A stretch of DNA of 64,000 nt. Source: Cyanobacteria bacterium P01_F01_bin.150 (GTDB lineage Bacteria > Cyanobacteriota > Cyanobacteriia > CAKZMO01). Location: positions 32,001 to 96,000 of the forward strand of contig JBCCYL010000009.1 of NCBI GenBank assembly GCA_039189765.1, given 5' to 3'. The translations under genes were made by a program, and so were the position numbers. This document shows, piece after piece, positions 37,603 through 62,483 of the stretch. Under the pieces are notes generated by a model. It saw only the letters and a list, made by a program, of their open reading frames with translations. It did no database searches and had not been told where the DNA came from. Every line of letters starts with the position of its first letter. Position 1 is the stretch's first letter.

Positions 37603-37720
37603 CTTGGCTACTGAAGTTATGGCTACACAAACGAAGTCTACCTCCGTGGACTAGGGCGATCAAGAATTCTGGTAACCCACGCAGGCGGGTTTTGTTTGTA
37701 TAGCCTTAGTTTCAACGACT
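37603..37720. mobile_element. MITE-like element (family B, copy 2)
   Basis: GGCTACACAAACGAAGTCTACCTCCGTGGACTAG...AACCCACGCAGGCGGGTTTTGTTTGTATAGCC is colinear with 18463-18584. Confidence 0.8.
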
Positions 37721-37839
37721 TCGCTTTTTTGACTAAAATAGCAAACCCCAGAAGGGGAACTCTTACTTACGTTCAGAGAGAGTTCTCAAGAAGCTTAGAG
37801 TAATGTAAGACATTTGCCTCAAAAGTTTGCATAGCCGAA

Positions 37840-38712
37840 TTATTCTGTGGGACTTTCGCAAAGAGTCATCTTAATTTGCTCCAGCCGTTGGGCCAACTCA
37901 GGGGACGGATTTTCCACTGAAAATAGGGCGTCGAGACTGTCATACAGCAACCGTAGATCATGCTGAATAAAGAAGCGCGATCGCCGCAGCGCCAATTCCT
38001 CAGCCGTTGCCCCACTGGAGTGAACTTGCTCCTCTAGCTGAGATAGCTCTGCGTCTATCATGCGTCGGTCTTCGCTCCCTAAACGTTCCAATAAAAGTGG
38101 GTCAGTGGATGCGCCATCGGACGTTATGCCGACAAACGTCAAGGTATAAAGCTGTCCTGGCTGTAACTCTTCTCCCGCATATCGCACGGCAGTATCAGTA
38201 GGCTGAACTGAGTACGTCCACATCTTCTGATTGTCTAGCAAATTGCGGACAATAATCTGACTGACATCCCCCTGCCACACAATCAGGGGGCGATCGGTCC
38301 ACACCATAAATGGCCCATTACGGACCTCTTCTAACTTGAATGCATAAGGACTAATCGGACAGAACTTGGAGGTTCGGCTTCCCCCCGGTTCACCCCATCT
38401 GAAAAAATCGACTAAATCATCAGCCATTTCAGACACCGAGCCAGTGCCCGGTTCATCCCAATCACTATCAAACTCTTCCTCTCCCTGATCATTACCGGAT
38501 GTCTGTCCGATTAGAGATGCCTGTCCGATTGGAGCGGACAGGGACTTCTGCCGCTGGGCTAAATCAACGGGGGCAAATGGGGCTAGTGGTGAAACATTAG
38601 CGCCAAACGATAGAGAGTGTGTAGCGATCGCTATAGATGTATGAGCCAATCCCAAACAGCCAAGTAAGACAGTAAATGCAGCACACCGATATAAACGAGA
38701 GGAATTAAACAT
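37840..38712 (-). CDS. DUF928-like exported protein
   Basis: Signal peptide, PGGSR..C.ISP, W.DRP..VW, YAGEELQPGQLY, L.YD.L; start overlaps the CHASE2 gene stop. Confidence 0.75.
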   Translation of the reverse strand: MFNSSRLYRCAAFTVLLGCLGLAHTSIAIATHSLSFGANVSPLAPFAPVDLAQRQKSLSAPIGQASLIGQTSGNDQGEEEFDSDWDEPGTGSVSEMADDLVDFFRWGEPGGSRTSKFCPISPYAFKLEEVRNGPFMVWTDRPLIVWQGDVSQIIVRNLLDNQKMWTYSVQPTDTAVRYAGEELQPGQLYTLTFVGITSDGASTDPLLLERLGSEDRRMIDAELSQLEEQVHSSGATAEELALRRSRFFIQHDLRLLYDSLDALFSVENPSPELAQRLEQIKMTLCESPTE

Positions 38713-41455
38713 TGGGCTTTCTCCGCAATACACGTAAAATATAAATCCAAACCAATACAGTGGGTAGGGTCCAGGGCAACAAAACGCCTGCTGAAATATA
38801 AAGCTGAAGGCTGGCCAGACCAGATAGTCCCGTTAAACCAGTAAATCCCAGCGTTAAGCGACGCCGCTGAAGATGAGTCCATTGGGAGTGAGGATAAGCC
38901 ACCTTAATCCACTGGGCCGTCACATAGCCAAAAAGTGCGGCGATCGCCACGACCCAACTATCCGGCACATGAATCACCTTACGCTGCGTCAAAAAATGGT
39001 GAACCATATAGGCATGAGCTTCGCCTTTGGGGAATGCTTCTTTGGTTCCAGATGGGAGAGGAGCGTTTGTAGTTGGATCGCTGATTAGATGAGACACTGG
39101 CGGAAAGATAGAATACCAATGTTTTGTAGCGCTAGGCAACGGTTCATTATCCTTGGCCTCATCAATTCCCGCTTCTGTATATCCCCCTGGTACGATCATC
39201 ACTGTCCGCCCCGATAAATCTAGTGACTGATCTAATACCGATTCATCTAATAAGGCCCAGGCTGGAATTCGGGCATACACCGCATCTGGAGGAATAGAAA
39301 AATCTAATAGTTGGGCAAACCATGTCTGACCAAACTGTTTATTGCTCCATAACGTTAGTGGGTGAAAGCGCGATCGCTCTTGAACGCGCTCTAAACGGTA
39401 CAGAGCATTAACAGCTTCAGACGTTAACGATATATTTGGAACTTGAGCACTATCAACAGGTGGAGATAACTCCACCGTATTTATAAACTGAGCGCGGAGA
39501 TCGGCTTGATTACTGCGGCTAGGAGGCTTAATCTGTGCAGCAATATCTGGATCCTGAGTGGCTTGCTGCAAAAGCGATAACAGATACGCAAATGGGCAGC
39601 GATTTAGGCGACAATCATCCCCAGGCGCTTGGAGGGTCATATATCCCATTAGGACATCAATATGAGCGCCCATCATCCATGAGGGCTGAGCAATTTCACT
39701 TTTTTGATTAACGCTGACTTCTTGTCCATCTTCACCAATAATAGACGCAAAAACCAACCACATTTCTTGATCAACCGCTTGATTGACTGCCTCCTGTAAG
39801 CGCTGGTCCATTTTAGGATCATCAGCCGGACGATCAAGAAGATAATCGATGCCAATAATGGATGCTTTTTGTTGAGCTAACGTCTGGATTAAATCAGCAA
39901 GGTAACTGCGATCAATTGGGAATGGGTCTCCCATTCGCCGATCTTTCTTCAAAGATTCTTCGTCTACCTGCACCAGTACAACAGGGGGGGAATCTGTGGC
40001 CGGAACCTGGTGGGTAAGTTGGCGATAGATGGCTTGGGTGCGTAATCGCTGGTCAAGACCGATCGACTGAGCGCTGGGCAGTAAGCTGAGGCCGAGGCAG
40101 GCAGTGAGGGCGATCGCTTCATACCTTAAGGGAATTAGTGTTTTAAGCTTTTGTCTCAGTCCTCTTTTCGGAATTCGAAATAGGGTTGCATCAGGATGGC
40201 AAAAAAGCGAAGGAACTAAATTAGCAGAGGGATAGGTAAATTGCTGCTCTAGCTTGAGCCATTGACAGGCTGACTGCATGGCTTCTTGCACATCTAGATG
40301 ATTCGCTAAGCTCTGCATAAATTTCCACAAGAAGGCTTGGGCAACCCGAGTATGGATTGGCTCCCGCATCACTACAACTTGGCTCAAGCCCAAATCCATC
40401 AAAAACTCGGCAATATCTAACCCATTACAGGAATTAAACAGCGCAAACTGTAGCCCCTTTTCCTTCGCAATTGATAAAGAGGGCGCTAACTCCTGCATAG
40501 TAATAGATGACCCTGGAGCAATGGCAAGCTGTCCGCCCATCAACTCTTTCTCATTACTGTGTCCGGCAAAAAGCAATAGATCCCAGCCATCATCATCGGC
40601 GATCGCCTTACAGACACGAATCTTTACCGCTTCTGGGGATTGATTTGGCTGCCAGCCCTCAAACGTGATATCCGCAATATTGGTTAAAGACTGAACCGCC
40701 TTTCGATCTTCGCGAAAATCTAAACCCGTGCTATCTCCTAAAATGATTAAGATTCGGGGACGACGATGACGACGATAGCGAAGGTGAGTCGCACCCGAAG
40801 CAGCATGAATTGTCAATGAACTACGAACAATCTGTACTGAATCTCTAGTGGCGAATTCGGCCCCTATTTCCCAAGTTTCCCAGGGAAAACGAGCCAGTTC
40901 AAGCGGATAACAGCTAAGAAAAAGGCGGGTTTCCATCGCCTGCTCAGGTAGTTGCTCCGTAGTCGGTTGCTTCTCTTGCTTTGGCAAATCTAGTGATGTT
41001 GTGCCCCGTGACTTTACTCCAGCAATAGTGGCACGGACTTCAAATAAGTCACTATGCCGTAACCAACGTTGAAATTCATAGGTTAAGGTCGTTTCTGCCT
41101 GGACTAAACGCTCATGCCAATCAGGTGGGGGAAGATTCACTGAACCCCCTGTGACTGCTTTTCCTCGCAAAGAGTTACTGGGTTTTGAGCTAGCACTATC
41201 CGTTACCAAAGAGTTTGGATCGGTAGCAAGAACCCTATCTTTAAGACGATCAGCACTCCGGAGTTCCATATCCGAAAGTTGCGAATAAAACGTAAGGTAT
41301 TGTCGTTGCCAATCTTGATATCTTTTTTCCAGAACAGAGGGATAGGGCACACGCGCCATTATTTTCTGCCCTTGTCCCCAAGACAGTTCAAATAAACAGA
41401 CCGCCTCAACGCGTTGAACCTGTAGATAAAAGTGACGGGAAGATTGGGAAACCAT
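38705..41455 (-). CDS. CHAT-CHASE2 transmembrane protein
   Basis: LARFPWETW, LLFAGHS and LFNSCNG (CHAT His/Cys), a TM, CHASE2 (VVLVQVDEES, RSYLADLI, IGIDYLLD, GEAHAY), then 3 C-terminal TMs. Confidence 0.9.
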   Translation of the reverse strand: MVSQSSRHFYLQVQRVEAVCLFELSWGQGQKIMARVPYPSVLEKRYQDWQRQYLTFYSQLSDMELRSADRLKDRVLATDPNSLVTDSASSKPSNSLRGKAVTGGSVNLPPPDWHERLVQAETTLTYEFQRWLRHSDLFEVRATIAGVKSRGTTSLDLPKQEKQPTTEQLPEQAMETRLFLSCYPLELARFPWETWEIGAEFATRDSVQIVRSSLTIHAASGATHLRYRRHRRPRILIILGDSTGLDFREDRKAVQSLTNIADITFEGWQPNQSPEAVKIRVCKAIADDDGWDLLLFAGHSNEKELMGGQLAIAPGSSITMQELAPSLSIAKEKGLQFALFNSCNGLDIAEFLMDLGLSQVVVMREPIHTRVAQAFLWKFMQSLANHLDVQEAMQSACQWLKLEQQFTYPSANLVPSLFCHPDATLFRIPKRGLRQKLKTLIPLRYEAIALTACLGLSLLPSAQSIGLDQRLRTQAIYRQLTHQVPATDSPPVVLVQVDEESLKKDRRMGDPFPIDRSYLADLIQTLAQQKASIIGIDYLLDRPADDPKMDQRLQEAVNQAVDQEMWLVFASIIGEDGQEVSVNQKSEIAQPSWMMGAHIDVLMGYMTLQAPGDDCRLNRCPFAYLLSLLQQATQDPDIAAQIKPPSRSNQADLRAQFINTVELSPPVDSAQVPNISLTSEAVNALYRLERVQERSRFHPLTLWSNKQFGQTWFAQLLDFSIPPDAVYARIPAWALLDESVLDQSLDLSGRTVMIVPGGYTEAGIDEAKDNEPLPSATKHWYSIFPPVSHLISDPTTNAPLPSGTKEAFPKGEAHAYMVHHFLTQRKVIHVPDSWVVAIAALFGYVTAQWIKVAYPHSQWTHLQRRRLTLGFTGLTGLSGLASLQLYISAGVLLPWTLPTVLVWIYILRVLRRKPNV

Positions 41456-47817: not shown

Positions 47818-48117
47818 ATGGCGATACGTAATTTTCAGAACAAGGCAACGGAAGATATCAACTATGGAGTAGTTTCAAAAATTGCGCTGAAGCTCCTTCC
47901 TCAAGAGTTGCATCGAAAGGCGCGAATTAAATTAGCGAGATTAGGTGCTGCCACTTCGATTCAGGATTTGCGAGAATTGAAAGGAAATCGGCTTGAAGCA
48001 CTGAAAGGGGACAGAAAGGGACAATATAGTATCAGAATTAATGATCAGTATCGGATTTGTTTTAAGTGGAAGCAAGATTATCCATACGATGTTGAGATTG
48101 TTGATTATCACGATTAG
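47818..48117 (+). CDS. higB: HigB (RelE/ParE family) toxin
   Basis: GNRLEALKGDRKGQYSIRINDQYRICF..VEIVDYH. Confidence 0.95.
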   Translation: MAIRNFQNKATEDINYGVVSKIALKLLPQELHRKARIKLARLGAATSIQDLRELKGNRLEALKGDRKGQYSIRINDQYRICFKWKQDYPYDVEIVDYHD

Positions 48118-48132
48118 AGTGGAGATAAGTTC

Positions 48133-48420
48133 ATGACCATACAACATGTTACGTCAATTCATCCTGGAGAGGTTTTACAAGACGAGTTAGAGGAACTAGA
48201 TATTTCACCCGAAATCTTAGCCGAGCACATCAAAGTTCCCATAACGAATATTTTGGATATCTGTAGTGGTCAAAAGGATATTGATGCAACGCTTGCCATT
48301 AAGCTTTCACGCGCATTAGGAGCTAGTCCTCTGTTTTGGCTTAATCTTCAAAACAATTGGGAATTAAGTCAAATTGATGAGTCCGCTTACCAGGATATTA
48401 AACCTGTCGTAGCTGCTTGA
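48133..48420 (+). CDS. higA: HigA family antitoxin (HTH)
   Basis: IHPGEVLQDEL, A.KLSRALG.SP.FWLNLQ. Confidence 0.95.
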   Translation: MTIQHVTSIHPGEVLQDELEELDISPEILAEHIKVPITNILDICSGQKDIDATLAIKLSRALGASPLFWLNLQNNWELSQIDESAYQDIKPVVAA

Positions 48421-48421
48421 C

Positions 48422-48653
48422 GCGATCGCCCCTAAAAATCTCACCAACGAGCGATCGCCTCCACAAAGTCCATCAACCAGCGATTGCCCTCAAAACTCCA
48501 CAAGTCAGCGATCGCCCTTCACCAATCCACCAACCAGCGACGCCCCTCCCATCATAACTGGCAACAAAGCGATCGCGTTCCAGCACCAGGAGCGATCGCT
48601 TTCCAAACTCCACAACAGCAGTCGATCCCACCACTCCACGAAAAAGCGATCGC
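48422..48653. repeat. HIP1 spacer array 3
   Basis: GCGATCGC at 48422, 48451, 48508, 48569, 48592, 48646 plus variants at 48480, 48537, 48618. Confidence 0.9.
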
Positions 48654-48679
48654 ATTTCTGACTCTCTACATTCCTAGGA

Positions 48680-49006
48680 TCAGGCACTCTTCTTTGTTGC
48701 CGTCTCTTTTTGAAGAAGAAAATCAAGGTATTCTTCGAGTTGAAGAAGTCTAGGTTCTGATAGCTGTCCTAACTTGTCTAGAATTGCTTGCTGCTGTTGC
48801 CATTGTTGCAGGGGCATGATTTGTGATGCTGCAACTTCTACAGTGACATTAGGAACGTCAAACCCTTCTAGGCTATAGCCATCTTCCTCATTTTCAGGCA
48901 TGGCGTAATATTCCACGACTGTGGCACGATCGCCTCTCTTGAGACGATATTCGGGAATATCTTCGGCCAGGGCAACTTTGGAAAACAGAGGGTGTTGGCT
49001 GCTCAT
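48680..49006 (-). CDS. DUF4926 domain protein (putative antitoxin/immunity) with a short DUF2281-like tail
   Basis: LFSKVALAEDIPEY.LKRGD.ATVVE..GYSLE; tail L.QL.E..L.QL.EYLDFL; ATG 49006 overlaps the upstream stop. Confidence 0.8.
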   Translation of the reverse strand: MSSQHPLFSKVALAEDIPEYRLKRGDRATVVEYYAMPENEEDGYSLEGFDVPNVTVEVAASQIMPLQQWQQQQAILDKLGQLSEPRLLQLEEYLDFLLQKETATKKSA

Positions 49007-49335
49007 AAATTTTCTCCTTTGTCTGGCACTAGGGTAACAAATCTGGTCACTGTGGGAGTCACCATCCAGATCGTTTTGATGTTTAGTTCTACTCCATTTT
49101 CTCCTACCAGAGTGGCTCGGATGCAATATTTCTGTCCGTATTTGTTGGTTTCAAGCAGTTCGGCAGGTTGAGATAAGACTTGAGTTTGTAAGTCTTCTTC
49201 TAGCTTTTCCCAGTTATCAAGCGTGTAACCTGCTTTTGCCAGAAATTTAGATTTGTCATCTTTAGGTAAGGGAATCAGTAAATACTGGGTTAGTTTTGCT
49301 TCTGGAATTGCTGCGTCTGGGGGAAGAAAAGCCAT
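49003..49335 (-). CDS. DUF6883 domain protein (putative nuclease toxin)
   Basis: IPEAKLTQYLL...DKSKFL..AGY...YGQKY.I...L.G.NG..TIW....RFVTLVP. Confidence 0.8.
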   Translation of the reverse strand: MAFLPPDAAIPEAKLTQYLLIPLPKDDKSKFLAKAGYTLDNWEKLEEDLQTQVLSQPAELLETNKYGQKYCIRATLVGENGVELNIKTIWMVTPTVTRFVTLVPDKGENL

Positions 49336-49378: not shown

Positions 49379-49650
49379 GCGATCGCTCCCTTCTCTTGTG
49401 GCCACTCCACCAGCCTGCGATCGCCCCTCTCACCATAACTTGCGACAAAGCGATCGCATTCCTCATCACTACAAGCGATCGCCACTACCAAGTCATCAGT
49501 CAGCGATCGCTCCCTAATCTGCACACATAGCGACCGCTTTTTGTCCCCCTAATAAACAGCAAGCGATCCTCACAACTCTACACACTGCGATCGCCTACCA
49601 AAACTCCATAAGGGTGTTCGCTCTCCATAATACCCACAATCAGCGATCGC
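49379..49650. repeat. HIP1 spacer array 4
   Basis: GCGATCGC at 49379, 49417, 49450, 49475, 49503, 49587, 49643 plus variants at 49530, 49563, 49614. Confidence 0.9.
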
Positions 49651-49684
49651 TCTCCACAAATCTATAACAACGAGAACTGTCTGA

Positions 49685-51217
49685 TTATGCTATTTCCAAA
49701 TGTGTTAAAGGCGACATCATTTGACGACAATACAAAGAGTGACACAGTTGATTTTTTTCATCAAACCAAATGACGCCAATTTTTCTATCTAAACACATAT
49801 ATTCTTGTAACCATGAAACCACAGTTGGTTCATTAGGAAAAACAAGACACAATATTACGTCATAGCCTATGATATGTTGATACCTGAAACGATACTCATA
49901 TAGTTGACTAATTCCTTTTCGAGATTGACTTAGGAGATTATCTCTCGTCGTACTTTTGACCTCAAAAATGAATTTCTCTCCGTTAGAAGGTAATTGAGCA
50001 AAAAGATCAATATGTTCATTTTCGGTTGACTCAACACCACGTTCTTTAAGATAAGAATAGAGCTTCTCCAGAATTATCTTGTGATTCAGATTTGCTCTTT
50101 GCCGCTTAATTCTAGTGATTTCTGGGTCAGCATAAACTGGCTTCTTCAATTTTTTATTTTGAGGATTAGACTCCTCAAATTTTAGAGGCTTAAACTCGTA
50201 TATACTCTCTGATTTCTGAATTTCTATTTGATTATCAGAGGAAATATCAAGACCTTGAAGCTCAGTATAAATTTTAGGATCTTCATTTGTCAGGATTTCA
50301 ACCGATTCTGCACTTAGTGTTTTGATACCGTCAAAATAATCACCCCAGGAACAAATCCTGACCTCATCTAACAGATCATCAGAGCTTGATGCCTTATCAA
50401 ATCCCCGAAACTCAGTTTGTATAGCACTAATTGCATTTAATTTAGCTTCAAGCTGGCGTCTATCGGATTGACTAACATATCTTCTAAGTCTAATTGCATC
50501 ACGATCAGAAACCAACAAATTAGTATGCTTTAGAATATGAAAACGACTCTCATATTTCTGAGGCGGAAATAAAGTACCGTTACGAGACTTTTCTAGTACA
50601 CAAATCACATCATCTAAATTTGGATTAGCACGACTATTTGTTCTAGGATGGTTGGCTAGAATAAAAACTTCTGACCGAGATAAAGCTGCATTAAAGAGGC
50701 TAACATCTCGCAAGAAAGAGTCAGCCTGAATACCTTTGCATATAAGCCTTAAGGGGGATAAATGTATATTATTTTTGACAAATTCTAAAGTTCTGTCACG
50801 TGTGTTAGATTGTATCCTTACATTATTAGAATTTGTTTGATAAGCAATACCCATGCCGTTTGGATACTGAAATAGTGTAAGTTGAAGTACCATAAAGGAT
50901 GATACATTTGGCTCTTCGCAAACTAAAAATCGCCTGGTGGTTTCGCTAATAAATATATGCCAGATTCCATCTTTAAGTGCAACTCTGTATAGCCCTAAAT
51001 ACGCAGGGTAAGCACTTATCTCATCTCTAAATTTAGAAGGATCTCTTGCGACCTTAGATGCTCTTGGACTGATTTTTGACAAACGAGCTTCGATTGCTTT
51101 TCGGTCGTAAGGTTTTCCATCAAATTCGGAAAATATAGTCGCAATATCAATCAGCTTATCCGACCAGTCGTCACCACTTGAATGAATTTTATGACTAAAT
51201 AGATCTTTTATTTCCAT
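49685..51217 (-). CDS. Putative restriction endonuclease with C-terminal PD-(D/E)XK domain
   Basis: IDLFAQ..FIFEVKS..RKGISQLYEY; overlaps the 3' end of a C5-MTase by 23 bp; AT-rich. Confidence 0.7.
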   Translation of the reverse strand: MEIKDLFSHKIHSSGDDWSDKLIDIATIFSEFDGKPYDRKAIEARLSKISPRASKVARDPSKFRDEISAYPAYLGLYRVALKDGIWHIFISETTRRFLVCEEPNVSSFMVLQLTLFQYPNGMGIAYQTNSNNVRIQSNTRDRTLEFVKNNIHLSPLRLICKGIQADSFLRDVSLFNAALSRSEVFILANHPRTNSRANPNLDDVICVLEKSRNGTLFPPQKYESRFHILKHTNLLVSDRDAIRLRRYVSQSDRRQLEAKLNAISAIQTEFRGFDKASSSDDLLDEVRICSWGDYFDGIKTLSAESVEILTNEDPKIYTELQGLDISSDNQIEIQKSESIYEFKPLKFEESNPQNKKLKKPVYADPEITRIKRQRANLNHKIILEKLYSYLKERGVESTENEHIDLFAQLPSNGEKFIFEVKSTTRDNLLSQSRKGISQLYEYRFRYQHIIGYDVILCLVFPNEPTVVSWLQEYMCLDRKIGVIWFDEKNQLCHSLYCRQMMSPLTHLEIA

Positions 51218-52322
51218 TACTTAAAAAATTGAGTTCTAGGATTTTAATTAACTCATCAATGCTTGGTTTTGCTTCTGTATTAAAAATATTCTGCGAAACA
51301 TATCTCGCTAAAATACCCGCAAATAGTGGTGGAACCGCATTGCCAACCTGACGAATTACATGTCTCCCAGTCCCATGAAAATCCCACCAATCAGGGAATG
51401 TTTGAATACGAGCGCTTTCTCGTGGAGTCACTTCTCGTGGGTCATAGGGATGGACATGTCCTTTCCCTCCACCTGCATCAGAACCAACAATAATTGTAAA
51501 GCTTGGTCTATCTGGATTTAATTTATTTATTCTCGTTTTTGGATCTCTTTCTCCATAGGATAAGGAATGATAACGCTCAACAATTCTTTCACTGTGCTTG
51601 CGTCCCACATGTCCATTGAGCGGCGGTTTTTTTTTCCAATCAGTGATGGGTTTAGGTAAACCGGATAGTGCAGACTGAACAGTATTAAATGGCCGACAAT
51701 CATTCAATAATGATTTTTGCTCTCCAAAAATTTCTTTTTTTACTTCTGAATGAGTTGAAAACATTTTTGGAACTTTCTTGCCAGAGCGAGTTCCAATAAA
51801 GAATAGTCTTCGTCTAAATTGAGGCACACCAAACTCAGCTAGCTCATATTCATGGTCTGAGATGGTATATTCTCCGCTCAAAGATAAAGTCTTAAGAAGT
51901 TCCTGATATAGGTTGCCATTGTGGATAGTTTTCAACCCAGTCACATTCTCAAAGATAAATGCTTCAGGCTTTATCTCGTTAATTATTCGGGCGTATTCGA
52001 ATACCAAACCACCACGAGGATCTTCTAATCCCTTTCTTCGACCAAAAATAGAGAATGCCTGACACGGAGGACCACCAATAATGAAATCGATGTTGCAGTG
52101 ACCGATCTCATTCTTGACACTTTGTTGTGATAGCTGCCGCACGTCCTGACATAAAACCGGATGCTTGTTGAGATAAGGCTTCTTCTCTTGGTTTTGCTCT
52201 AGTGTTTTACATGAGAACGAGTCTATATCAGATGATAAAACTAAATGAAAACCAGCAGCAGAAAAACCTAAGTCAAGGCCACCGCCACCAGAAAACAACC
52301 CTAGTGTGTTGATTTGTGTCAT
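51195..52322 (-). CDS. DNA (cytosine-5) methyltransferase
   Basis: LFSGGGG (I), GGPPCQ (IV), FENV (VI), QFRRRLF (VIII), RESARIQTFP (IX), QVGNAVPP (X). Confidence 0.96.
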   Translation of the reverse strand: MTQINTLGLFSGGGGLDLGFSAAGFHLVLSSDIDSFSCKTLEQNQEKKPYLNKHPVLCQDVRQLSQQSVKNEIGHCNIDFIIGGPPCQAFSIFGRRKGLEDPRGGLVFEYARIINEIKPEAFIFENVTGLKTIHNGNLYQELLKTLSLSGEYTISDHEYELAEFGVPQFRRRLFFIGTRSGKKVPKMFSTHSEVKKEIFGEQKSLLNDCRPFNTVQSALSGLPKPITDWKKKPPLNGHVGRKHSERIVERYHSLSYGERDPKTRINKLNPDRPSFTIIVGSDAGGGKGHVHPYDPREVTPRESARIQTFPDWWDFHGTGRHVIRQVGNAVPPLFAGILARYVSQNIFNTEAKPSIDELIKILELNFLSNGNKRSI

Positions 52323-52554
52323 CTATCAACGTCCAAACAATCATTAAGCTGGGTGAATGAGAATTAACAGTTGATGATGTAACTCCCACTTTAAGAACTA
52401 TAGTACCAGCTCTAGCTACTGCTGATATTGCTACATATCTAGCGTTCTCCTCAAACGCATCGGAGAGGCTATCGGTTAACGCCTTTTGAATATGGTACAG
52501 CACTCGCTCATAATAGAGGGGCATCACCTTAACAAACTAGAATACTATGTTTTT

Positions 52555-52779
52555 CCAAAACTCTAAGATATTCGCAGCACGGAAGCTACCCGTATACGCC
52601 CGGTGACTCCACAGCAGCTCTTACGCTTCGTGGACGTCTTCGGGAATGCCTTCTACCACGGTGCTGATGTTGGAATGGGTAGATGTGATCGCCATTCCAA
52701 ACAAATTAACTTCGAATGACGATAAACGGTTAGTAACCAGTCCCAGTGGCCCTGCATCCAAGAGAATTACTCGACTCAC
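52555..52779 (-). pseudogene. Decayed PIN-domain (VapC-like) toxin
   Basis: GTG 52779 overlaps the upstream TGA; reads VSRVILLDAGPLGLVTN, then a frameshifted CLEW..HL and IPED.HEA*ELL; stop at 52621-52623. Confidence 0.75.
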
Positions 52780-53486
52780 CAGCTAACCCCTTTCATTGAC
52801 GAGGGAAAGAGTTTTCGCTCCGAAGAACGGTTTTTATCGAGTGCATGGACAAGAAATTCCCCTGTTTCGCATTGTTCAGGATCATCCTCATCCAACCAGC
52901 TTTGCAACAACTGCACGCCTTCAATTGCTGAAGCCGATACTTGAGGGGTTGAAGCTACCTGCTGTTGAGCCTCAGAAGATAAGGATTGAGTCCCAGACTC
53001 TGTTGCAGCAAGCCGCATTTCTCTCAATGCATTCAATAAATAGTCAAGGTACTGTTCAAATGAATCCGCACTCTCTCCTTCGATGCCGTGATGAAGCTTG
53101 ATATATTCCAATGCAACGACTGCACAATCTACGTCTAACTCTAATGCTTGATACGTTTCCTTCAGTCTTGATAGAGCATAGTCATCAAGGGGGGCAGAGC
53201 TATCCGTAACTAAACAGTAGCTTATTAGCCTTAGGAAGAAAGTAATGTCTCGATAACAACATGCGCTGTGACGTGTATCCAAGGCATAGCTGGGAAAATG
53301 CATGTAAACAGCTTGAGACGCTTTCTGAGCTAAAGAGTCTGAACATCTTGCTAATTGCTGTGCCGCATCTAGTCTTACAGATGCCTTGTGGAAACCATGC
53401 CAAACACTTTGCATCTCAGAGTTATTTAAAAAACGAGCTTGATCATGAGCATCAGCACAGATAGCGTTTATGGTACTAATATTCAT
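52776..53486 (-). CDS. Phycobiliprotein-like domain fused to a C-terminal antitoxin-like domain
   Basis: ADAHDQARFL..E, AVY.HFP, CYRDI.FFLR.ISYCLV, PLDDY, YIK.HHG..G, YLDY.LNAL (phycocyanin-alpha-like); tail LLQSWLDEDD.EQ.ETGEFL..ALDK.R.SERKLFP..KGVSW. Confidence 0.85.
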   Translation of the reverse strand: MNISTINAICADAHDQARFLNNSEMQSVWHGFHKASVRLDAAQQLARCSDSLAQKASQAVYMHFPSYALDTRHSACCYRDITFFLRLISYCLVTDSSAPLDDYALSRLKETYQALELDVDCAVVALEYIKLHHGIEGESADSFEQYLDYLLNALREMRLAATESGTQSLSSEAQQQVASTPQVSASAIEGVQLLQSWLDEDDPEQCETGEFLVHALDKNRSSERKLFPSSMKGVSW

Positions 53487-53983
53487 ATTTTCCTATTTCC
53501 TTCAACACTAACCAGCAATATCAGAATCAATGCATGTTGTTTGTAAATGAATTTATGAGGTCGTCTTCCTTGTTTTAACATCTTCCTTTTCCTTGGAGCT
53601 ATTCAAAACCCCACCGACCTAGTAAGGCTTGTCCTGGCTGACTCCGGCCTTGGCTACCGTTACCGCGCCGTAGACCGATAGCTGATGCTGACGGAGCAGT
53701 TGGGCAATAGGCCATGCATAGGCAGGCAAGAATGCGATCGCCATTCCTAATTACTCAGAAATCCACAAAATTCTGACCTTTTCCTGACTCCTCAGCCTTC
53801 AGTGGCCTATTTCTGCCAAATAACGTTAAATACCAGGCAAGTCTGGAGCTTGACTCTGAACAAGAATCAGCCTATGTTCGTTTTTATGGCGATCGCAACG
53901 CTGCATCGGTAATTTACATCCAAGTGACTTACCGTATCAGCCCCTTGCCGTCGCTCTGGCTCAGAACTCAGGAGACTTAGCGC

Positions 53984-54015
53984 CATCGGCGGGTGCAGCG
54001 AACACCACACCGATG
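53984..54015 (+). promoter_or_regulatory. Stem-loop in the leader of a small-protein gene
   Basis: CATCGGCGGGTG-CAGCGAA-CACCACACCGATG with a CATCGG/CCGATG closing stem. Confidence 0.4.
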
Positions 54016-54165
54016 ACTACACCCCAAAAACTGTTCGAGGCAGTTCGGAGGTATGGGTTGATTATCGCCCAGCTACCCCGATTTGTACCACAGGTTGCGG
54101 AGTGGCTGAGTGATTTTGGGTTCTGGTCTCTATCCATTGATGTTTATATCTGGAGACCAGAAAAC

Positions 54166-54531
54166 ATGTCTCAACCCTTTGAACCGGGCGTATTTACGCC
54201 CACAGTTTGTGATGAAAATTATCCTGGAAACTACCCTGGAAACTACCCTGCATATTACGCAGGCAATTACCTGACAAACTACACCACAAGCTATATTGCG
54301 AATTATGCAGCAAACACCGTGGCAGTAAGTGCAACGATGTCGTCATCGTCGCCGCCCCACTACGAACCCGTGCGCCATATGCTCTTTGGCAGCATCGCCG
54401 CAGTCCAGAACACGATCAAACTGCTGTACGTCCTTAACTACGCCGAACCCAATGATTGGAGTCATCCTGTTCCGTCAGGCCAACCCGGTGAAGTCGTCGT
54501 CGTCTTAACTAAAAAAGTTCGTATCGGCTAA
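54166..54531 (+). CDS. Small cyanobacterial hypothetical protein with NY-x-x repeats
   Basis: GGAGA SD at 54152; C-terminal VRHMLFGS..AV..TI..L.VLNYAEPNDWS.P.P...GEV domain; ORF is also open upstream to 54013. Confidence 0.75.
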   Translation: MSQPFEPGVFTPTVCDENYPGNYPGNYPAYYAGNYLTNYTTSYIANYAANTVAVSATMSSSSPPHYEPVRHMLFGSIAAVQNTIKLLYVLNYAEPNDWSHPVPSGQPGEVVVVLTKKVRIG

Positions 54532-58219: not shown

Positions 58220-61200
58220 CTACCAGGGGTTACCGACTGCAGTAAACGCTGACCAAAAATAGGGATGGGATAAGTCGGTGGTGGCTGTAGCTAGACTTTC
58301 TGGAGGCAGGGGAATACCGTCCTCTAAACCATCGATAAACAAAACTCCGTTTTCTATATACACGTTACCCTTTACCAGCGCTAGCTGTGCCTGACGCAGT
58401 GCTTCTGCCTTAATAGGAGCGGTATTTAGCATATTGTAAAACTGAGTCATCAGAGACGTCGTGGCAACATCATCTACGGCCCAGAGGCTGGCGATCGCCG
58501 TTTTTACCCCTGTTTGAACTGCCAGTCCAGCAAAGCCCAGCTCGGCCTCACGACTTCCCACTGCCGTTTGACAAGCACTCAACACCAGCATTTCTACCGC
58601 CGGATTATTCCAGCCTAACTGTCTGACTTTGTCCATTGTAAGCTGATCATCCCATAGCTGAATATAAGAATCACTGTATTTCCCGGGCTGGAAGCGGGCA
58701 TGGGTAGCCATATGAATAATTCCAAATGGAGTCCGTTCTCGCACATCTTTTAAGGTGTCAAAGGTAGCGCGTTCATTCAAGAAGAGTTCTCCTTTCCACA
58801 CATCAAAAATGAGTGTGGACAACTCAGTGGGCACGGCTGGCAGAGGCGTCTGGCCGTTGGTCTCTTCTGACACCCCCATCGCTAACATACTAGAATCTCG
58901 CACATCCACATATTCGGTGTTTGTCAAACTTAGGCTGGGCATCAGCCCCATGCTGTAGTTTTCCACCAAATAGTTATTACCATCGTGGATAGCCGCAAAG
59001 GGGATGGTGCGTAGTCCTTCGTCCGCAAGAAAGGATAAATTGGTCACACCATGCAAATCTAGCTGATCTTGGATAGGTTCCACCAGCCATCGATAAAGCT
59101 GGTTTGCCTCGTTTAAATGACGGGTAGCATTACGGGTTGGGGAGGTAATATCCCCCCGAAACTCTCGAGCAATACGAGTGACTTGACTTCGTGTAACGCC
59201 CGGTACACGCCGACGAATCATGCCACCGCGAGCTGTAATCACCACCAGCTCCAGCTCATCTTCATTTTGACCTTTATAGTTCTCTAAATCCTCAACAGTC
59301 AGGATTGTGTCAAAATTAGGCGGCACAAAACTGATGTATATAAATCCTGGACGTTCACCAGTGGCCTTTTCAATCTCGTGAGCCAACTGTCGGGCACCTT
59401 CAGGCCCTGCAAGTTCAAGTTCTTGGGAAACTGTTTCTATTTCCGGTAAATCTAAATAAGCTGCAAAATCATTGGAGAAAAATGTTTCTAATGTTTTCAG
59501 ATGGGTCGATTGCTCCAGCGAGTTGATCGGATTGACCGTATAAAACTCTACTGGAGGCAATGGCGGAATTTCAATGGGTGCTTCTACTTCATTGGAGACT
59601 ACAGTGTCGATGGCTGGACGTAAATCCTCTGGAAGCTGTGGATTCAGGACTACAGTGTCGGGGCGTTCTCTGGGATTTGGCGCGCGGATCTTTTCAGCAT
59701 CCACTATTGGTTCTGGCTCGCCATCAGGGATTGGTTCTGGCTCAATATTGGGTGTTGGAGTAAGCGTTAAGTCAGGACCGGGTCGAGGCGTCACCGTGGG
59801 TGTGGGTGTGGGCGTCACCGTGGGTATGGGCGTCACTGTAGGGATGGGCGTCACTGTAGGCGTGGGCGTCACTGTAGGCGTGGGCGTTACCGATGGCGGA
59901 GGGGTAGGCATTGCAGTAATATCGACAGTGACTGTAATGGGACTAGACGTTGATACGCGATCGCTTGCCACCACCTGAAGAACATCTGCTTCACCTGTTA
60001 CACCTGGGGCGGGAGTATACAGAATTTGGTCATCCAGCGAAATCTCCGCATCCACTTCCAGGGGTTCCCCATTAATGGTCAATATGGCCCCATCACTGAT
60101 ACTGTCTACCTTCAAACGGACTGCATCATTATCGGCGTCTGTAACGGTGACAGGATCGAGCGATTCACCTAGGGAAATTAAAACGGGAGTCCCTTCAGAT
60201 GTGGCAAACTCCGCAGTTCCCGTTAACTCAGGCGCACTGTTTACAGACGTAATCATCACCCGATCAGAGCCATTGGCCGATACCCCGAGGTCATCGGTCA
60301 CCACTGGAAATCGCTGATCCTGAACAATCAGTTCTTCAATTAGAAATGTCGGTTCTCCGTCAATAAAGTCTCCATCGGCAAGTCTCTCTTCTGTGCCTGT
60401 GCGAATTGCACCTGATGTCCCATTCAACACCACATCTGCTGTACCAGTGCCATCAGCGTTAATATTTTGGCCGTTGCCCACAATAAAGTCGTCATTGTCT
60501 GAGCCACCAGAATGGGTGATTTGGACCGATCCGCTGAAATTCTCCGAACTGCCAATAACAACATTGAAGTTGCCGTCATTGCCGTCAATATCTCCATCCT
60601 CTGGCCCGCTTCCGACAACGCTTCGTCCGTCTGTAATAATTGAGTTGCCTTGTTTATCAGTGCCAATAATCTGAATCAGGTCACCCGTGAGTACGACATC
60701 TCCCCCTGACCCCGAAGAACTGCTTGTGTTAATTGGAGCAAACGCTTCTGCATCATCAGCATTGGGGACCCCAATTCGCACTGTCCCCTCTCCAGTGACA
60801 CTGATATCGCCCCCATCATTCTCCCCTACGCCAGCGGTCAGGAATGAACGCCCCATCACATCGCCACTGGCAACAATGGTAATATTTCCGGCATTTCCGT
60901 TTCCAAAACTTGTGTCTATCGTGCCTAAGAGAATATTTGCCCCTTGGATGATGACATCATTACCGTTAGTGATGAGCTTGTCGTTAGGAATAGTACTTTC
61001 GTCAGCGGGGTTCTGATCTGTGGATGCCATCGAAAAGTCGCCCTGGCCATTACCGTCGGCATCGGCAATAAAGCTAGCATCAGTGGACAAGTTGAATTGC
61101 CCCCTGCTTACAGCAGCTATCCTAATATCATTGGTGGCTTCAAGAATGATTTGACCGTTAGCATTGATATTGGCGTCCAAAAGCCTAATATCTCCACCAG

Positions 61201-62245
61201 CGATCGCCACATTTCCCTCTAACTCTGTTTCTTCAGAAATAGGCAATACGTCCACCGTGCCAGCAATTGTTACTGCTTCATCTTCAACAGAGATTGTTTG
61301 TCCTGAGGCTAAAGCAAGAGAGCCATCTGGATTAACCTTCACCGCATCAGCATGGTCCAAGTCTCCGCCAGTCAGAACCTCTGGCAGAGCTGCAACTGGG
61401 AGGGTCCAGGTTGCTAAAGAATCTATATTTGCATCATTGTTTGCTGGGTCTGCCGTCCCCAGTATTCCATCCAGAGGATCCACATCCAAGCTCAATACCT
61501 GACCCGCTAGGTTAAGACTCACTAACGATTGTCCTGGAACCGCTGCCAGCAAAACTTGCCCACCATCGCTAGCCAATGTACCTGTAGATAGCACCTGTCC
61601 CCCAATCAGTGAGAGCGTTTGCCCTTGGGTAACTGACAATGCTCCACCATTAAAAATAGGACCGGGTGTATCAGTTCTGAAAACAAATTGATCTGGATTG
61701 CCGACTAACCTACTGTAATCGTTGATGCTTGCATCGCCTAGTACATCGAACCAACCATTTTCAAATCCAATACCCGTTGCAGTTGTAGCGGTGAAAGAAG
61801 CCGGGACATTTAGCTTGGCATTATCCCCAAAAAATACGCCGGCAGGGTTGACCAAAAATAAATTAGCATCTGCCCCAGTAATCGTTAATTGACCATTGAT
61901 AATGGAGGGTGTGCCTCCCACCACCCGCGACAGAATATTCAATGTCTGCGGATCAACGATAAAGTTAGCAATTTGGTTTAGATCAAGGTCAAACTGATCA
62001 AAACTATGAAAAACATTTTGCCCATTATTCGATAAAGTTCCGCCCGTAATATCAAATTGCTGATCATTGGGTGTTGTGACTATCGTGCCTATCTGGTTCG
62101 GATTCTCGGGTGTAACGAATTGGGCCAACGCTGGACTAGCGAAGGGAAGGGTCAATATAGGAAGAGTCAATATGGAAAGGGAGCTGATGCCCAGTACCCG
62201 ACATACCGCATTTGGATAGTTGGACGCAGAATATTGAACAGCCAT
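58220..62245 (-). CDS. TpsA (FHA N-terminal domain)-CHAT fusion with a cadherin-like domain and Pro/Thr linker
   Basis: NVFHSFDQF, ANLFLVNPAGVFFG, NSAP..YTP, (TPTPTV)n, IHMATHARF and LVLSACQTA, HPYFWSAFTAVGNPW. Confidence 0.92.
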   Translation of the reverse strand: MAVQYSASNYPNAVCRVLGISSLSILTLPILTLPFASPALAQFVTPENPNQIGTIVTTPNDQQFDITGGTLSNNGQNVFHSFDQFDLDLNQIANFIVDPQTLNILSRVVGGTPSIINGQLTITGADANLFLVNPAGVFFGDNAKLNVPASFTATTATGIGFENGWFDVLGDASINDYSRLVGNPDQFVFRTDTPGPIFNGGALSVTQGQTLSLIGGQVLSTGTLASDGGQVLLAAVPGQSLVSLNLAGQVLSLDVDPLDGILGTADPANNDANIDSLATWTLPVAALPEVLTGGDLDHADAVKVNPDGSLALASGQTISVEDEAVTIAGTVDVLPISEETELEGNVAIAGGDIRLLDANINANGQIILEATNDIRIAAVSRGQFNLSTDASFIADADGNGQGDFSMASTDQNPADESTIPNDKLITNGNDVIIQGANILLGTIDTSFGNGNAGNITIVASGDVMGRSFLTAGVGENDGGDISVTGEGTVRIGVPNADDAEAFAPINTSSSSGSGGDVVLTGDLIQIIGTDKQGNSIITDGRSVVGSGPEDGDIDGNDGNFNVVIGSSENFSGSVQITHSGGSDNDDFIVGNGQNINADGTGTADVVLNGTSGAIRTGTEERLADGDFIDGEPTFLIEELIVQDQRFPVVTDDLGVSANGSDRVMITSVNSAPELTGTAEFATSEGTPVLISLGESLDPVTVTDADNDAVRLKVDSISDGAILTINGEPLEVDAEISLDDQILYTPAPGVTGEADVLQVVASDRVSTSSPITVTVDITAMPTPPPSVTPTPTVTPTPTVTPIPTVTPIPTVTPTPTPTVTPRPGPDLTLTPTPNIEPEPIPDGEPEPIVDAEKIRAPNPRERPDTVVLNPQLPEDLRPAIDTVVSNEVEAPIEIPPLPPVEFYTVNPINSLEQSTHLKTLETFFSNDFAAYLDLPEIETVSQELELAGPEGARQLAHEIEKATGERPGFIYISFVPPNFDTILTVEDLENYKGQNEDELELVVITARGGMIRRRVPGVTRSQVTRIAREFRGDITSPTRNATRHLNEANQLYRWLVEPIQDQLDLHGVTNLSFLADEGLRTIPFAAIHDGNNYLVENYSMGLMPSLSLTNTEYVDVRDSSMLAMGVSEETNGQTPLPAVPTELSTLIFDVWKGELFLNERATFDTLKDVRERTPFGIIHMATHARFQPGKYSDSYIQLWDDQLTMDKVRQLGWNNPAVEMLVLSACQTAVGSREAELGFAGLAVQTGVKTAIASLWAVDDVATTSLMTQFYNMLNTAPIKAEALRQAQLALVKGNVYIENGVLFIDGLEDGIPLPPESLATATTDLSHPYFWSAFTAVGNPW
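59787..59900 (-). repeat. Tandem repeat of about 18 bp encoding the VTP(T/I)PT linker
   Basis: GGCGTCAC(C/T)GT(A/G)GG units repeated about 6 times. Confidence 0.85.
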
Positions 62246-62483
62246 GATACTTTTTATACGTAGACTAATGACGGAAACTACATTCACTTTTCGGGCTTTT
62301 CCTGTCGGGTCCGCAATCCTACGGATGGATGGCTATTGCAAAGGCCTGTATGCATTGTCCAAAGCCTTGCTGATCAAGGCTTTTAAGAGTTCTTTATCTT
62401 TCATCAAGTCTTGATGAATATCCTCTGGAGGATAGACATTAAACCGTTCGTGACCAAACCCCGCTATGATGAACGATTGATGT

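What the first reader, a model, noticed from the sequence alone, without database searches (positions are those of the whole stretch)
52776..53486. Phycobiliprotein domain fused to a PIN-toxin antitoxin
Seen: aa 1 to about 156 align by eye with phycocyanin alpha. They keep the bilin-binding Cys in C-x-R-D (CYRD), have a shortened loop before it, and show some beta/APC-like features (LKETY). A Q/S/A-rich linker follows, then a tail of about 50 aa ending KGVSW whose TGA overlaps (GTGA) the start of a PIN gene. Known (from recall): ..SWL.E..EQ.ET..L..ALD..R.S.RKLFP.. proteins are the small partners upstream of SRVILLD.GPLG PIN genes in cyanobacteria. The gene lies away from any cpc/apc operon, inside a defence island. 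Inference: a TA module whose antitoxin carries a light-harvesting-protein domain. It might act as a decoy or sensor for phycobilisome-degrading factors (NblA/Clp, including phage NblA), for bilin supply or for light. The domain is strongly diverged yet open, which argues against a recent chance fusion.
Basis: partly seen in the sequence, partly recalled or inferred. Interest (0 to 1): 0.85.

Follow-up and report, generated by a model that had tools for sequence, protein, structure and literature searches.

The report
Phycobiliprotein-antitoxin fusion beside a dead toxin
A cyanobacterial gene joins a divergent light-harvesting (phycocyanin-like) domain to the toxin-binding tail of a toxin-antitoxin system, but its partner toxin gene survives only as a short stub, so it is a real and unusual orphan whose function is unproven.

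Summary
The ORF 52776-53486 (-), 236 aa, is a real chimera. Residues 1-156 form a full alpha-type phycobiliprotein domain (Pfam PF00502, E 5e-33; AF2 pLDDT 90-98; Foldseek top hits are phycocyanin alpha chains). It keeps the C-x-R-D bilin site and has an 8-residue loop deletion. Residues ~189-236 are the C-terminal tail of a cyanobacterial antitoxin family. Canonical members are 94-aa ribbon-helix-helix proteins that overlap (GTGA) a 150-aa PIN-like nuclease gene, as on a Nostoc plasmid.

The "PIN gene" here is a stub: only codons 1-23 are homologous, and a low-GC restriction-modification cassette follows it. No toxin is present. Also, no other protein among the 150 hits listed (of 260 found in 1.84 billion representatives) joins both parts, and no locus in the species genomes does.

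However, other divergent phycobiliprotein-like proteins carry different C-terminal modules. In two genomes such a fusion sits directly upstream of a retropepsin-like protease that matches the untested PADLOC defence candidate PDC-M08B.

Best reading: a domain-swapped antitoxin, now orphaned. Function, bilin binding and selection are untested.

The parts
52776..53486 (-). Whole fusion ORF, 236 aa (P0001), ATG start, TGA stop
   Evidence: Codon-usage log-odds are positive only in this frame (0.19 bits/codon against -0.56 and -0.79), similar to the neighbouring methyltransferase at 0.17.
53019..53486 (-). Divergent alpha-type phycobiliprotein domain, aa 1-156. C77/R79/D80 align with CpcA Cys84/Arg86/Asp87. 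There is an 8-residue loop deletion before the site.
   Evidence: Pfam PF00502 E 5e-33. CpcA chains in PDB at E 1.4e-29 with alignment. AF2 pLDDT 90-98 for aa 21-160. Foldseek top hits are phycocyanin alpha, E 3e-10, target TM 0.73.
52923..53018 (-). Q/S/A-rich linker, aa 157-188. It has no significant homology to anything.
   Evidence: It scores 3.2 bits against an HMM of the ribbon-helix-helix N-termini; 167 of 2000 shuffles do as well. Identity to members is 18.8%, against 37.3% among members. AF2 pLDDT for aa 171-190 is 57-58.
52779..52922 (-). Antitoxin-type C-terminal tail, aa 189-236 (LLQSWLDEDD..EQ.ETGEFL..ALD..R.S.RKLFP...KGVSW). It is the presumed toxin-binding peptide.
   Evidence: It is 72% identical to P0002. 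61 other proteins carry this tail behind varied N-termini. It keeps nearly all positions conserved at 80% or more. The Nostoc plasmid homologue lies upstream of a PIN-like gene.
52621..52779 (-). Stub of the PIN-like toxin gene: a 52-aa ORF with a GTG start inside GTGA. Only codons 1-23 (52711-52779) are homologous to intact partners.
   Evidence: tblastn of the intact 150-aa partner P0155 gives 16 of 23 identical and nothing else in any frame. No Pfam or NCBIfam match.
49685..52322 (-). Low-GC restriction-modification-like cassette next to the stub. It holds a C5 cytosine methyltransferase (51195-52322) and an overlapping 510-aa ORF with no family (49685-51217).
   Evidence: PF00145 E 1.7e-66. 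PADLOC MTase_II 2.7e-81. GC is 35-39% and GC3 0.26-0.30, against 0.48 for rpsB and tsf.
49643..53734 (.). A stretch free of HIP1 (GCGATCGC) that holds the cassette, the stub and the fusion gene. It is probably acquired DNA.
   Evidence: There are 94 HIP1 sites in the window and none between 49643 and 53734. The fusion gene has GC3 0.37.
53487..53503 (-). Purine-rich Shine-Dalgarno-like stretch (GAAGGAAATAGGAAAAT) directly upstream of the ATG
   Evidence: Read from the sequence. The promoter scan found no sigma-70-like site on this strand.

Best explanation
The gene encodes a domain-swapped type II antitoxin that has lost its toxin.

Its last ~48 residues are the toxin-neutralising tail of a cyanobacterial antitoxin family. 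Ordinary members pair a ribbon-helix-helix DNA-binding domain with this tail and overlap a PIN-like nuclease gene. Here a divergent alpha-type phycobiliprotein domain and a low-complexity linker stand where the ribbon-helix-helix domain should be.

The cognate PIN-like gene was cut off after codon 23, where a low-GC restriction-modification cassette now lies. The whole stretch looks horizontally acquired.

Shown: the two homologies, the sharp boundary between them, the intact fold prediction, the stub, and the composition. Inferred: that the tail binds PIN-like toxins, that the fusion once served as the antitoxin of the lost toxin, and that today it can at most act in trans on paralogous PIN toxins elsewhere in the genome or is on its way to decay.

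The phycobiliprotein domain most likely supplies a stable helical body, possibly for oligomerisation, in place of the DNA-binding dimer. Whether it binds bilin is open.
For: - The domain and the tail are each highly significant.
- The tail matches genuine members as well as they match each other (60.2% against 62.8%). The preceding 38 aligned columns do not (18.8% against 37.3%).
- An intact reference module has the identical GTGA overlap.
- In a fold model of a canonical member, the N-terminal ~40 residues match Arc, CopG, NikA, CopA(SO) and M. tuberculosis VapB chains. Foldseek probabilities are 0.9-0.99 and rmsd 1.0-1.5 A, but E is only 0.25-2.
- The same tail sits behind visibly different N-termini. 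By eye these are DUF433-like, Phd/YefM-like and others. The module is therefore mobile between antitoxin bodies.
- The stub is homologous for 23 codons only.
- There is a GC and HIP1 break.
- The ORF is open, with in-frame coding bias in all three parts.
- Its Pfam score (114.7 bits) lies within the range of its relatives (53.9-129.3 bits).
Against: - It is a singleton. No second protein or locus with this fusion was found.
- The only close relative is a 62-aa N-terminal fragment, 49 of 62 identical, whose C-terminus is unknown.
- With no toxin in cis there is no obvious selection to keep the tail.
- The tail is on the divergent side of its family: rank 46 of 57 by mean identity and the lowest HMM score of 57, though the other 56 trained the model. 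It has Asp to Asn at one position conserved at 80% or more.
- No promoter-like site or terminator was found.
- Binding of tail to toxin rests on gene order and homology alone. No solved relative exists by sequence.
- The PIN assignment of the reference partner is just under Pfam's cutoff (22.6 against 23.6 bits).
Confidence: 0.5

Rival explanations
1. An evolutionary accident without function. A phycobiliprotein paralogue and the 3' part of an antitoxin gene were joined by a rearrangement inside a decaying, horizontally acquired island. The ORF is open only because the event is recent.
For: - It is a singleton in all searches.
- Both ends of the former toxin-antitoxin module are gone. The ribbon-helix-helix part is unrecognisable and the toxin is cut at codon 23.
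- The region is foreign in composition.
- The stub's homologous codons are about as diverged as the tail from the same Nostoc module (16 of 23 against about 65% identical). This gives no sign that the tail is better kept than dead DNA.
Against: - 236 codons are open, with in-frame coding bias in every part.
- The phycobiliprotein domain scores as well as its relatives and folds confidently.
- A fragment 79% identical, with mostly conservative changes (56 of 62 positives), shows that the domain lineage exists elsewhere.
- C-terminal additions are common in this kind of paralogue: 27 of 66 domains carry 40 residues or more.
Confidence: 0.3
2. A working sensor-antitoxin, and one example of a wider class. 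In this class a phycobiliprotein-like domain reports on bilin, light or phycobilisome integrity, for example degradation triggered by phage or NblA. It would control a tethered inhibitory tail that releases an effector, here a PIN RNase encoded in trans and elsewhere a retropepsin-like protease.
For: - The bilin-site triad C-x-R-D is kept.
- In two unrelated genomic contexts (L002, L003), a phycobiliprotein-like protein with a DUF5678-like tail lies 5-6 nt upstream of a retropepsin-like protease.
- Those proteases match PADLOC candidate PDC-M08B at 8e-12 and 1.2e-9.
- The tail of P0004, the nearest relative of the window's domain, weakly matches PDC-M08A (1.4e-4, 21 residues).
- One database protein, P0072, joins a PIN_3 domain to a phycobiliprotein domain.
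Against: - No toxin in cis, and none of this family elsewhere in the window.
- The Cys84 equivalent is absent in 30 of 66 related domains, including P0021, the fusion in L002. Bilin attachment is therefore not a family constant.
- PDC systems are untested candidates (passages of the preprint 10.1101/2024.01.29.577857).
- P0001 has no PADLOC hit.
- The domain tree gives no supported clade uniting the fusions.
- There is no phage link by sequence.
Confidence: 0.15

Closest known systems
VapB-type ribbon-helix-helix antitoxins paired with PIN (VapC-like) toxins; concretely the 94-aa protein plus 150-aa 'nuclease' pair on Nostoc sp. UHCC 0870 plasmid NZ_CP091915.1
   Same: The C-terminal ~48 residues are homologous (32 of 49 identical to the Nostoc protein). 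The position is the same, directly upstream of the toxin start with a GTGA overlap.
   Different: The ribbon-helix-helix DNA-binding domain is absent and a phycobiliprotein domain stands in its place. The toxin gene is truncated to 23 homologous codons.
C-phycocyanin alpha subunit (CpcA)
   Same: The full-length globin-like phycobiliprotein fold, 36-40% identity to solved CpcA chains, and Cys84/Arg86/Asp87 equivalents.
   Different: It is far below the NCBIfam CpcA cutoff (115.8 against 269.45 bits). It has an 8-residue loop deletion and Cys/Ala where CpcA has Trp128/Tyr129. It has no beta-subunit or linker genes nearby. It carries an 80-residue C-terminal extension.
Non-canonical phycobiliprotein-like paralogues with C-terminal extensions (P0004, P0006-P0008, P0013, P0021, P0034, P0042, P0043 and others). 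These are unnamed in the sources I could see.
   Same: A short-loop alpha-type domain followed by a 45-100 residue tail. P0004 is the nearest relative (45% identity over aa 8-153). 34 of 66 domains share the short loop and 27 of 66 carry 40 or more extra C-terminal residues.
   Different: Their tails are unrelated to the window's. One kind is DUF5678-like (Atlas score 0.91, a lead only). A second, the '...YMYG.PKEE' tail, also occurs on 11 small proteins. A third is an 'RGVVV' tail. Only P0001 has the PIN-antitoxin tail.
PADLOC phage defence candidate PDC-M08 (two genes, untested)
   Same: This applies to the relatives in L002 and L003, not to the window gene. A small first gene product sits directly upstream of a retropepsin-like protease that matches PDC-M08B.
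   Different: In those loci the first product carries an N-terminal phycobiliprotein-like domain. The match to PDC-M08A is weak (P0004, P0034) or absent (P0021, P0043, P0042). The window gene matches no PADLOC model.
Modular or promiscuous antitoxin architectures. Domain shuffling in type II systems is established knowledge. I saw only the search listing and abstract of PMC10440598 and ran a term search in it.
   Same: A neutralising module is recombined with different partner domains. The same tail occurs behind several unrelated N-termini.
   Different: A light-harvesting-protein domain as the partner is not mentioned there. 'phycobili' and 'globin' each occur 0 times in the main text.

Membership tests
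Phycobiliprotein (Pfam PF00502) | Sequence match above the curated cutoff over the whole domain | tested here: met
   114.7 bits against cutoff 22.2; profile positions 4-155 of 155.
Phycobiliprotein (Pfam PF00502) | Globin-like all-helical fold with an N-terminal helical hairpin | tested here: met
   AF2 gives pLDDT 90-98 over aa 21-160 with helices throughout. Foldseek top hits are all phycocyanin or phycoerythrin alpha chains, E 3e-10, target TM 0.73. This is a prediction only.
Phycobiliprotein (Pfam PF00502) | Bilin-attachment Cys (Cys84 equivalent) with Arg86 and Asp87 | tested here: met
   C77, R79 and D80 align to them. The roles of these residues are from established knowledge.
Phycobiliprotein (Pfam PF00502) | Covalently bound bilin chromophore | not testable with these tools
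   Needs expression with bilin synthesis and lyases.
Canonical CpcA (NCBIfam TIGR01338 equivalog) | Score above the equivalog cutoff, and a gene in a cpc operon beside cpcB | tested here: not met
   115.8 bits against cutoff 269.45. No other phycobiliprotein gene in the window.
Type II antitoxin of the ribbon-helix-helix / PIN-like family | C-terminal tail homologous to proteins encoded directly upstream of the PIN-like gene | tested here: met
Type II antitoxin of the ribbon-helix-helix / PIN-like family | N-terminal ribbon-helix-helix DNA-binding domain | tested here: not met
   The linker scores 3.2 bits against the N-terminal HMM; 167 of 2000 shuffles do as well. Identity is 18.8% against 37.3% among members.
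Type II antitoxin of the ribbon-helix-helix / PIN-like family | Intact cognate toxin gene immediately downstream | tested here: not met
   Only 23 homologous codons remain, in a 52-aa ORF.
Type II antitoxin of the ribbon-helix-helix / PIN-like family | Binds and neutralises the toxin | not testable with these tools
   The reference PIN-like protein comes from a plasmid record that the fold tools do not accept. There is no solved relative by sequence.
PIN-domain toxin (for the downstream ORF) | Complete PIN domain of ~130-150 aa | tested here: not met
   The ORF is 52 aa with no family match. Homology ends at codon 23.
PADLOC PDC-M08 (considered for the wider family) | Match to components A and B in adjacent genes | tested here: inconclusive
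   Component B is met in L002 and L003 (8e-12, 1.2e-9). Component A is matched weakly by P0004 (1.4e-4) and P0034 (0.024) only, and neither of these is encoded in L002 or L003. It is absent in P0021, P0043 and P0042. P0001 has no hit.

The most novel reading that the evidence does not exclude
Cyanobacteria may have recruited phycobiliprotein-like domains, outside light harvesting, as N-terminal sensor or scaffold modules of two-gene toxin or defence pairs. The domain would be tethered to a short inhibitory tail that holds an effector in check: a PIN RNase in this lineage and a retropepsin-like protease in others. This would couple effector release to bilin supply or to phycobilisome breakdown, such as that caused by phage-encoded NblA. 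On this reading the window holds a degraded member of that class.
Probability: 0.12. Interest if true: 0.85.

Novelty: new variant of a known kind. Interest (0 to 1): 0.55.

Why it matters
Phycobiliproteins are treated almost only as antenna pigments. A phycobiliprotein fold grafted onto an antitoxin tail would show that this fold is reused as a general protein module in mobile toxin and defence genes. So would its relatives grafted onto partners of retropepsin-like proteases.

It would also offer a testable route by which cells could link growth arrest or abortive infection to the state of their antenna.

For antitoxin biology, it is a clear natural case where the DNA-binding domain is replaced by a non-DNA-binding domain while the neutralising tail is kept.

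Against this, the example in the window is a singleton with a dead toxin. Its own present-day function may be nil.

Tried and rejected
1. A remnant of the ribbon-helix-helix domain in the linker. MAFFT and tblastn suggested 'QSLSSEA' against 'QGLSTEA'. An HMM test was not significant, with 167 of 2000 shuffles as good. I dropped the claim that the junction lies inside that domain or at the old start codon.

2. A mixed alignment of phycobiliprotein-like and tail proteins (A7). It misaligned the last phycobiliprotein helix with the tail and was not used.

4. Genome scans.
- A4 (P0001 plus P0004) matched 62 stretches, none of them a relative.
- A5 gave 76 loci. In 74 of them the ORF tested at the end of the match showed no long extension of the phycobiliprotein ORF. 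Where the match ran on, that ORF began after the phycobiliprotein gene. I did not inspect those loci one by one.

5. The three other tail types searched against plasmids: no match. P0001 against phages: no match. The Atlas search for the 'YMYG' tail scored 0.76, which is nothing usable.

6. The domain tree of 66 rows is poorly resolved (10 of 63 branches starred), and P0001 falls in no supported clade. No claim is made about single or multiple origins of the fusions.

7. The promoter and terminator scan was uninformative: 2 promoter-like sites against 2.7 expected, none on the gene's strand, and 0 terminators. There is no Rfam family in 46-55 kb and no tRNA in the window.

8. Complex prediction, pairing the L002/L003 protease with the DUF5678-like tail, never ran because the queue was full at every attempt. 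That pairing is therefore untested.

9. Literature searches.
- 'phycobiliprotein' + 'antitoxin': 41 papers, none relevant by title or abstract start among the 15 listed.
- 'phycobiliprotein-like' + fusion + cyanobacteria: 0 papers.
- 'DUF5678': 1 irrelevant paper.
- 'PDC-M08': 0 papers.
- 'phycobilisome protein' / PF00502 / paralog: 19 papers, none relevant among the 15 listed.
- phycobilisome / toxin-antitoxin / PIN domain / fused: all 12 listed papers had 0 occurrences of 'phycobilisome'.
Full report
WHAT IS THERE

The minus-strand ORF 52776..53486 is open for 236 codons from an ATG. A purine-rich Shine-Dalgarno-like stretch lies just upstream. Codon-usage log-odds trained on 14 long genes of the window are positive only in the annotated frame. 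This holds for the domain part (0.17 bits/codon), the linker (0.26) and the tail (0.20), and is comparable to the neighbouring methyltransferase (0.17).

THE N-TERMINAL DOMAIN

- Residues 11-154 match Pfam Phycobilisome over essentially the whole profile (E 5e-33, 114.7 bits).
- NCBIfam ranks it alpha-type: CpcA 115.8 bits, CpeA 104.5, ApcB 58.5, ApcA 58.4, CpcB 36.2. All are far below the equivalog cutoffs (CpcA 269.45), so it is not a canonical subunit.
- A phmmer search of PDB sequences found 185 distinct sequences at E <= 0.001, led by C-phycocyanin alpha chains at 1.4e-29. The printed alignment shows a single 8-residue gap in the loop before the chromophore site. C77, R79 and D80 fall on Cys84, Arg86 and Asp87.
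- AlphaFold2 with a 38-sequence alignment gives mean pLDDT 82, with 90-98 across residues 21-160.
- Foldseek against the PDB returns only phycocyanin or phycoerythrin alpha chains at the top (E 3e-10, target-normalised TM 0.73, 36-40% identity).
- No other phycobiliprotein gene lies in the 64-kb window.

THE TAIL

- A word-indexed search with the last 66 residues found one protein, P0002 (94 aa), 72% identical over the last 47 residues.
- The exhaustive phmmer search of 1.84 billion representatives gave 260 hits at E <= 0.001, of which 150 were listed. These fall into two disjoint sets.
61 others carry the tail motif, all from that search except the plasmid protein P0154. Only P0001 has both.
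- The commonest tail-bearing form is 92-97 aa with the tail starting at residue 50 (14 proteins).
- Its N-terminus, modelled for P0046 (mean pLDDT 68, 70-85 in the first 40 residues), matches Arc, CopG, NikA, CopA(SO), Rv0298 and an M. tuberculosis VapB. Rmsd is 1.0-1.5 A over ~38-44 residues. Foldseek probability is up to 0.99, but E-values are only 0.25-2, and none reaches 0.001.
- Pfam gives only weak ParD, NikA-like and HicB hints for P0002 (E 0.025-0.074).
- By eye, the same tail also follows other N-termini that look DUF433-like, Phd/YefM-like and so on. Those labels are my reading and were not tested.

THE REFERENCE MODULE AND THE STUB

- tblastn of P0001 against PLSDB plasmids found the tail on Nostoc sp. 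UHCC 0870 plasmid NZ_CP091915.1.
- There a 94-aa 'hypothetical protein' ends in a GTGA overlap with a 150-aa 'nuclease'.
- That nuclease matches Pfam PIN at 22.6 bits, just under the 23.6 cutoff (E 1.7e-4). It has no NCBIfam, PADLOC or PDB sequence match. I therefore call it 'PIN-like', not proven PIN.
- In the window the same GTGA overlap is present, but the downstream ORF is only 52 aa.
- tblastn of the intact nuclease against 52200-53600 finds residues 1-23 only (16 of 23 identical) and nothing further in any frame. A search of the whole window and of all 77 loci found no other copy. The toxin gene is therefore a stub.
- Directly beyond it lies a C5 cytosine methyltransferase (PF00145 1.7e-66; PADLOC MTase_II 2.7e-81) and an overlapping 510-aa ORF with no family.
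- This cassette has GC 35-39% and GC3 0.26-0.30, against GC3 0.48 for rpsB and tsf. The fusion gene has GC3 0.37.
- The window holds 94 HIP1 octamers, yet none between 49643 and 53734. The cassette, the stub and the fusion gene thus sit together in DNA that looks acquired.

WHERE THE HOMOLOGY STOPS

Against 14 ribbon-helix-helix members, the P0001 tail is 60.2% identical on average, compared with 62.8% among the members. In the 38 aligned columns before it, P0001 is 18.8% identical, compared with 37.3% among members.

An HMM of the members' first 49 residues scores the linker at 3.2 bits, and 167 of 2000 shuffles reach that score. I therefore do not claim a ribbon-helix-helix remnant, although alignments hinted at one.

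Over 57 tails, P0001 ranks 46th by mean identity (60.5% against 64.2%). It keeps nearly every position conserved at 80% or more. The exceptions are Tyr to Phe and one Asp to Asn.

IS THE FUSION FOUND ELSEWHERE?

No.
- The word-indexed search found only the protein itself among 254 candidates of 129-413 aa.
- No listed hit holds both parts.
- A scan of 185,579 species genomes with patterns from P0001 and P0004 matched 62 stretches, none of them a relative. The source genome itself is therefore not in that set either.
- The one close relative is a 62-aa fragment, 49 of 62 identical and 56 of 62 positives. Its C-terminus is unknown.

THE WIDER FAMILY

Among 66 near-complete related domains:
- 34 share the short loop.
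- 36 keep the Cys84 equivalent.
- 27 carry 40 or more extra C-terminal residues.

The extra parts are of several unrelated kinds with no Pfam match.
- One kind is DUF5678-like. The Atlas score is 0.91, which is a lead only.
- One ends in '...YMYG.PKEE' and also occurs on 11 small proteins.
- One is an 'RGVVV' kind.

A second genome scan returned 76 loci. Two of them hold DUF5678-like fusions: L002 (P0021 itself) and L003 (P0043). In both, a 136- or 150-aa retropepsin-like aspartyl protease starts 5-6 nt after the stop. Its Pfam Asp_protease_2 scores are 3e-12 and 5.3e-13, and the two proteases are 54% identical to each other. The flanking genes differ between the two loci.

Both proteases match PADLOC PDC-M08B (8e-12 and 1.2e-9). 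The tail of P0004 matches PDC-M08A weakly (1.4e-4 over 21 residues) and P0034 at 0.024. P0021, P0043 and P0042 do not match.

PDC systems are untested candidates predicted by 'guilt-by-embedding'. I read passages of the preprint 10.1101/2024.01.29.577857. The label PDC-M08 itself is not in its main text, and its supplements were closed.

Other architectures in the hit list:
- phycobiliprotein + subtilase (P0015)
- pentapeptide repeats + phycobiliprotein (P0143)
- PIN_3 + phycobiliprotein (P0072; 35.2 bits against cutoff 27), which may be a gene-call artefact

The domain tree is poorly resolved and puts P0001 in no supported clade.

INTERPRETATION

The best-supported reading is a domain-swapped antitoxin that has lost its toxin (confidence 0.5).
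- Shown: two significant, sharply bounded homologies in one open, coding-like frame; a confident phycobiliprotein fold prediction; the toxin stub; and the foreign composition.
- Inferred: that the tail binds PIN-like toxins; that the protein once neutralised the lost neighbour; and that it may now act in trans or be decaying.

The accident reading (0.3) is favoured by the singleton status and by loss of both ends of the old module. It is disfavoured by the intact ORF and by the good domain scores.

The sensor reading (0.15) draws on the kept C-x-R-D site and on the protease-linked relatives. It has no direct evidence, and the attachment Cys is not a family constant.

NOVELTY

Six full-text searches found nothing on phycobiliprotein domains in antitoxins or defence genes. 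Two toxin-antitoxin papers checked by term search do not mention them.

I rate it a new variant of a known kind: a type II antitoxin with an unprecedented N-terminal domain. Interest is tempered because the specimen is a singleton with a dead toxin.

Noticed in passing
L002:4001-5160 and L003:3611-5097: There is a conserved two-gene pair. A phycobiliprotein-like protein with a DUF5678-like tail is followed after 5-6 nt by a retropepsin-like aspartyl protease matching PADLOC candidate PDC-M08B. The flanking genes differ between the two genomes.
   Followed up: partly
protein P0072 (hit; no locus): This is a 284-aa protein with Pfam PIN_3 (aa 2-114, 35.2 bits, cutoff 27) followed by a CpeA-like phycobiliprotein domain lacking its first helix. 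It is a second PIN/phycobiliprotein link in the opposite order. It may be a gene-prediction artefact.
   Followed up: partly
proteins P0015, P0143, P0113, P0091 (hits): Phycobiliprotein domains occur in multidomain proteins: with a subtilase (715 aa), with pentapeptide repeats, at the C-terminus of a 1439-aa protein with ASH/Ig-like domains, and with a weak HTH_17 match.
   Followed up: no
window 49643-53734: A 4.1-kb stretch has no HIP1 octamer (94 in the window) and low GC. It holds a C5 methyltransferase and an overlapping 510-aa ORF with no family match, presumably the restriction partner.
   Followed up: partly
window 52621-52710 and 52273-52527: The non-homologous remainder of the stub ORF has a positive in-frame coding score (0.40 bits/codon over 29 codons). 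An 84-aa ORF overlaps the methyltransferase start. Neither has any family match.
   Followed up: no
window 47818-49335: A HigB/HigA pair (47818-48420, +) and an overlapping DUF6883/DUF4926 pair (48680-49335, -) lie here. They are separated by HIP1-dense spacers that create many short spurious ORFs.
   Followed up: no
window 29169-41455 and 58220-62287: There are three large CHAT-domain proteins: one with TPR repeats, one with CHASE2, and one with a TPS secretion domain. Next to them are a ShlB/FhaC-type transporter and a 1040-aa TPS-domain protein.
   Followed up: no
window 54013-54531: A 172-aa ORF with NYPGNYPGNYPAYYAGNY-type repeats and no family match lies between the fusion gene's upstream region and rpsB.
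   Followed up: no
model m84a8822ac9a4 against BFVD: Segments of several Synechococcus phage tail-fibre-like or structural proteins (metaG-MbCM1, S-H9-1, Syn30, S-WAM2, ACG-2014d, S-ShM2, S-CAM1) align to the phycobiliprotein domain. Foldseek probability is 0.97-1.00. For five of them rmsd is 3.0-5.5 A over ~160 columns; S-CAM1 aligns at 2.6 A over 104 columns and S-WAM2 at 18.9 A over 208. E is only 0.085-0.62, so this is a lead only.
   Followed up: no
alignment A7: The last phycobiliprotein helix (E.N.YIDYLIN.AL) and the antitoxin tail core (EQ.ETGEYLIQ.ALD) look alike enough for MAFFT to misalign them. This is probably a coincidence.
   Followed up: no
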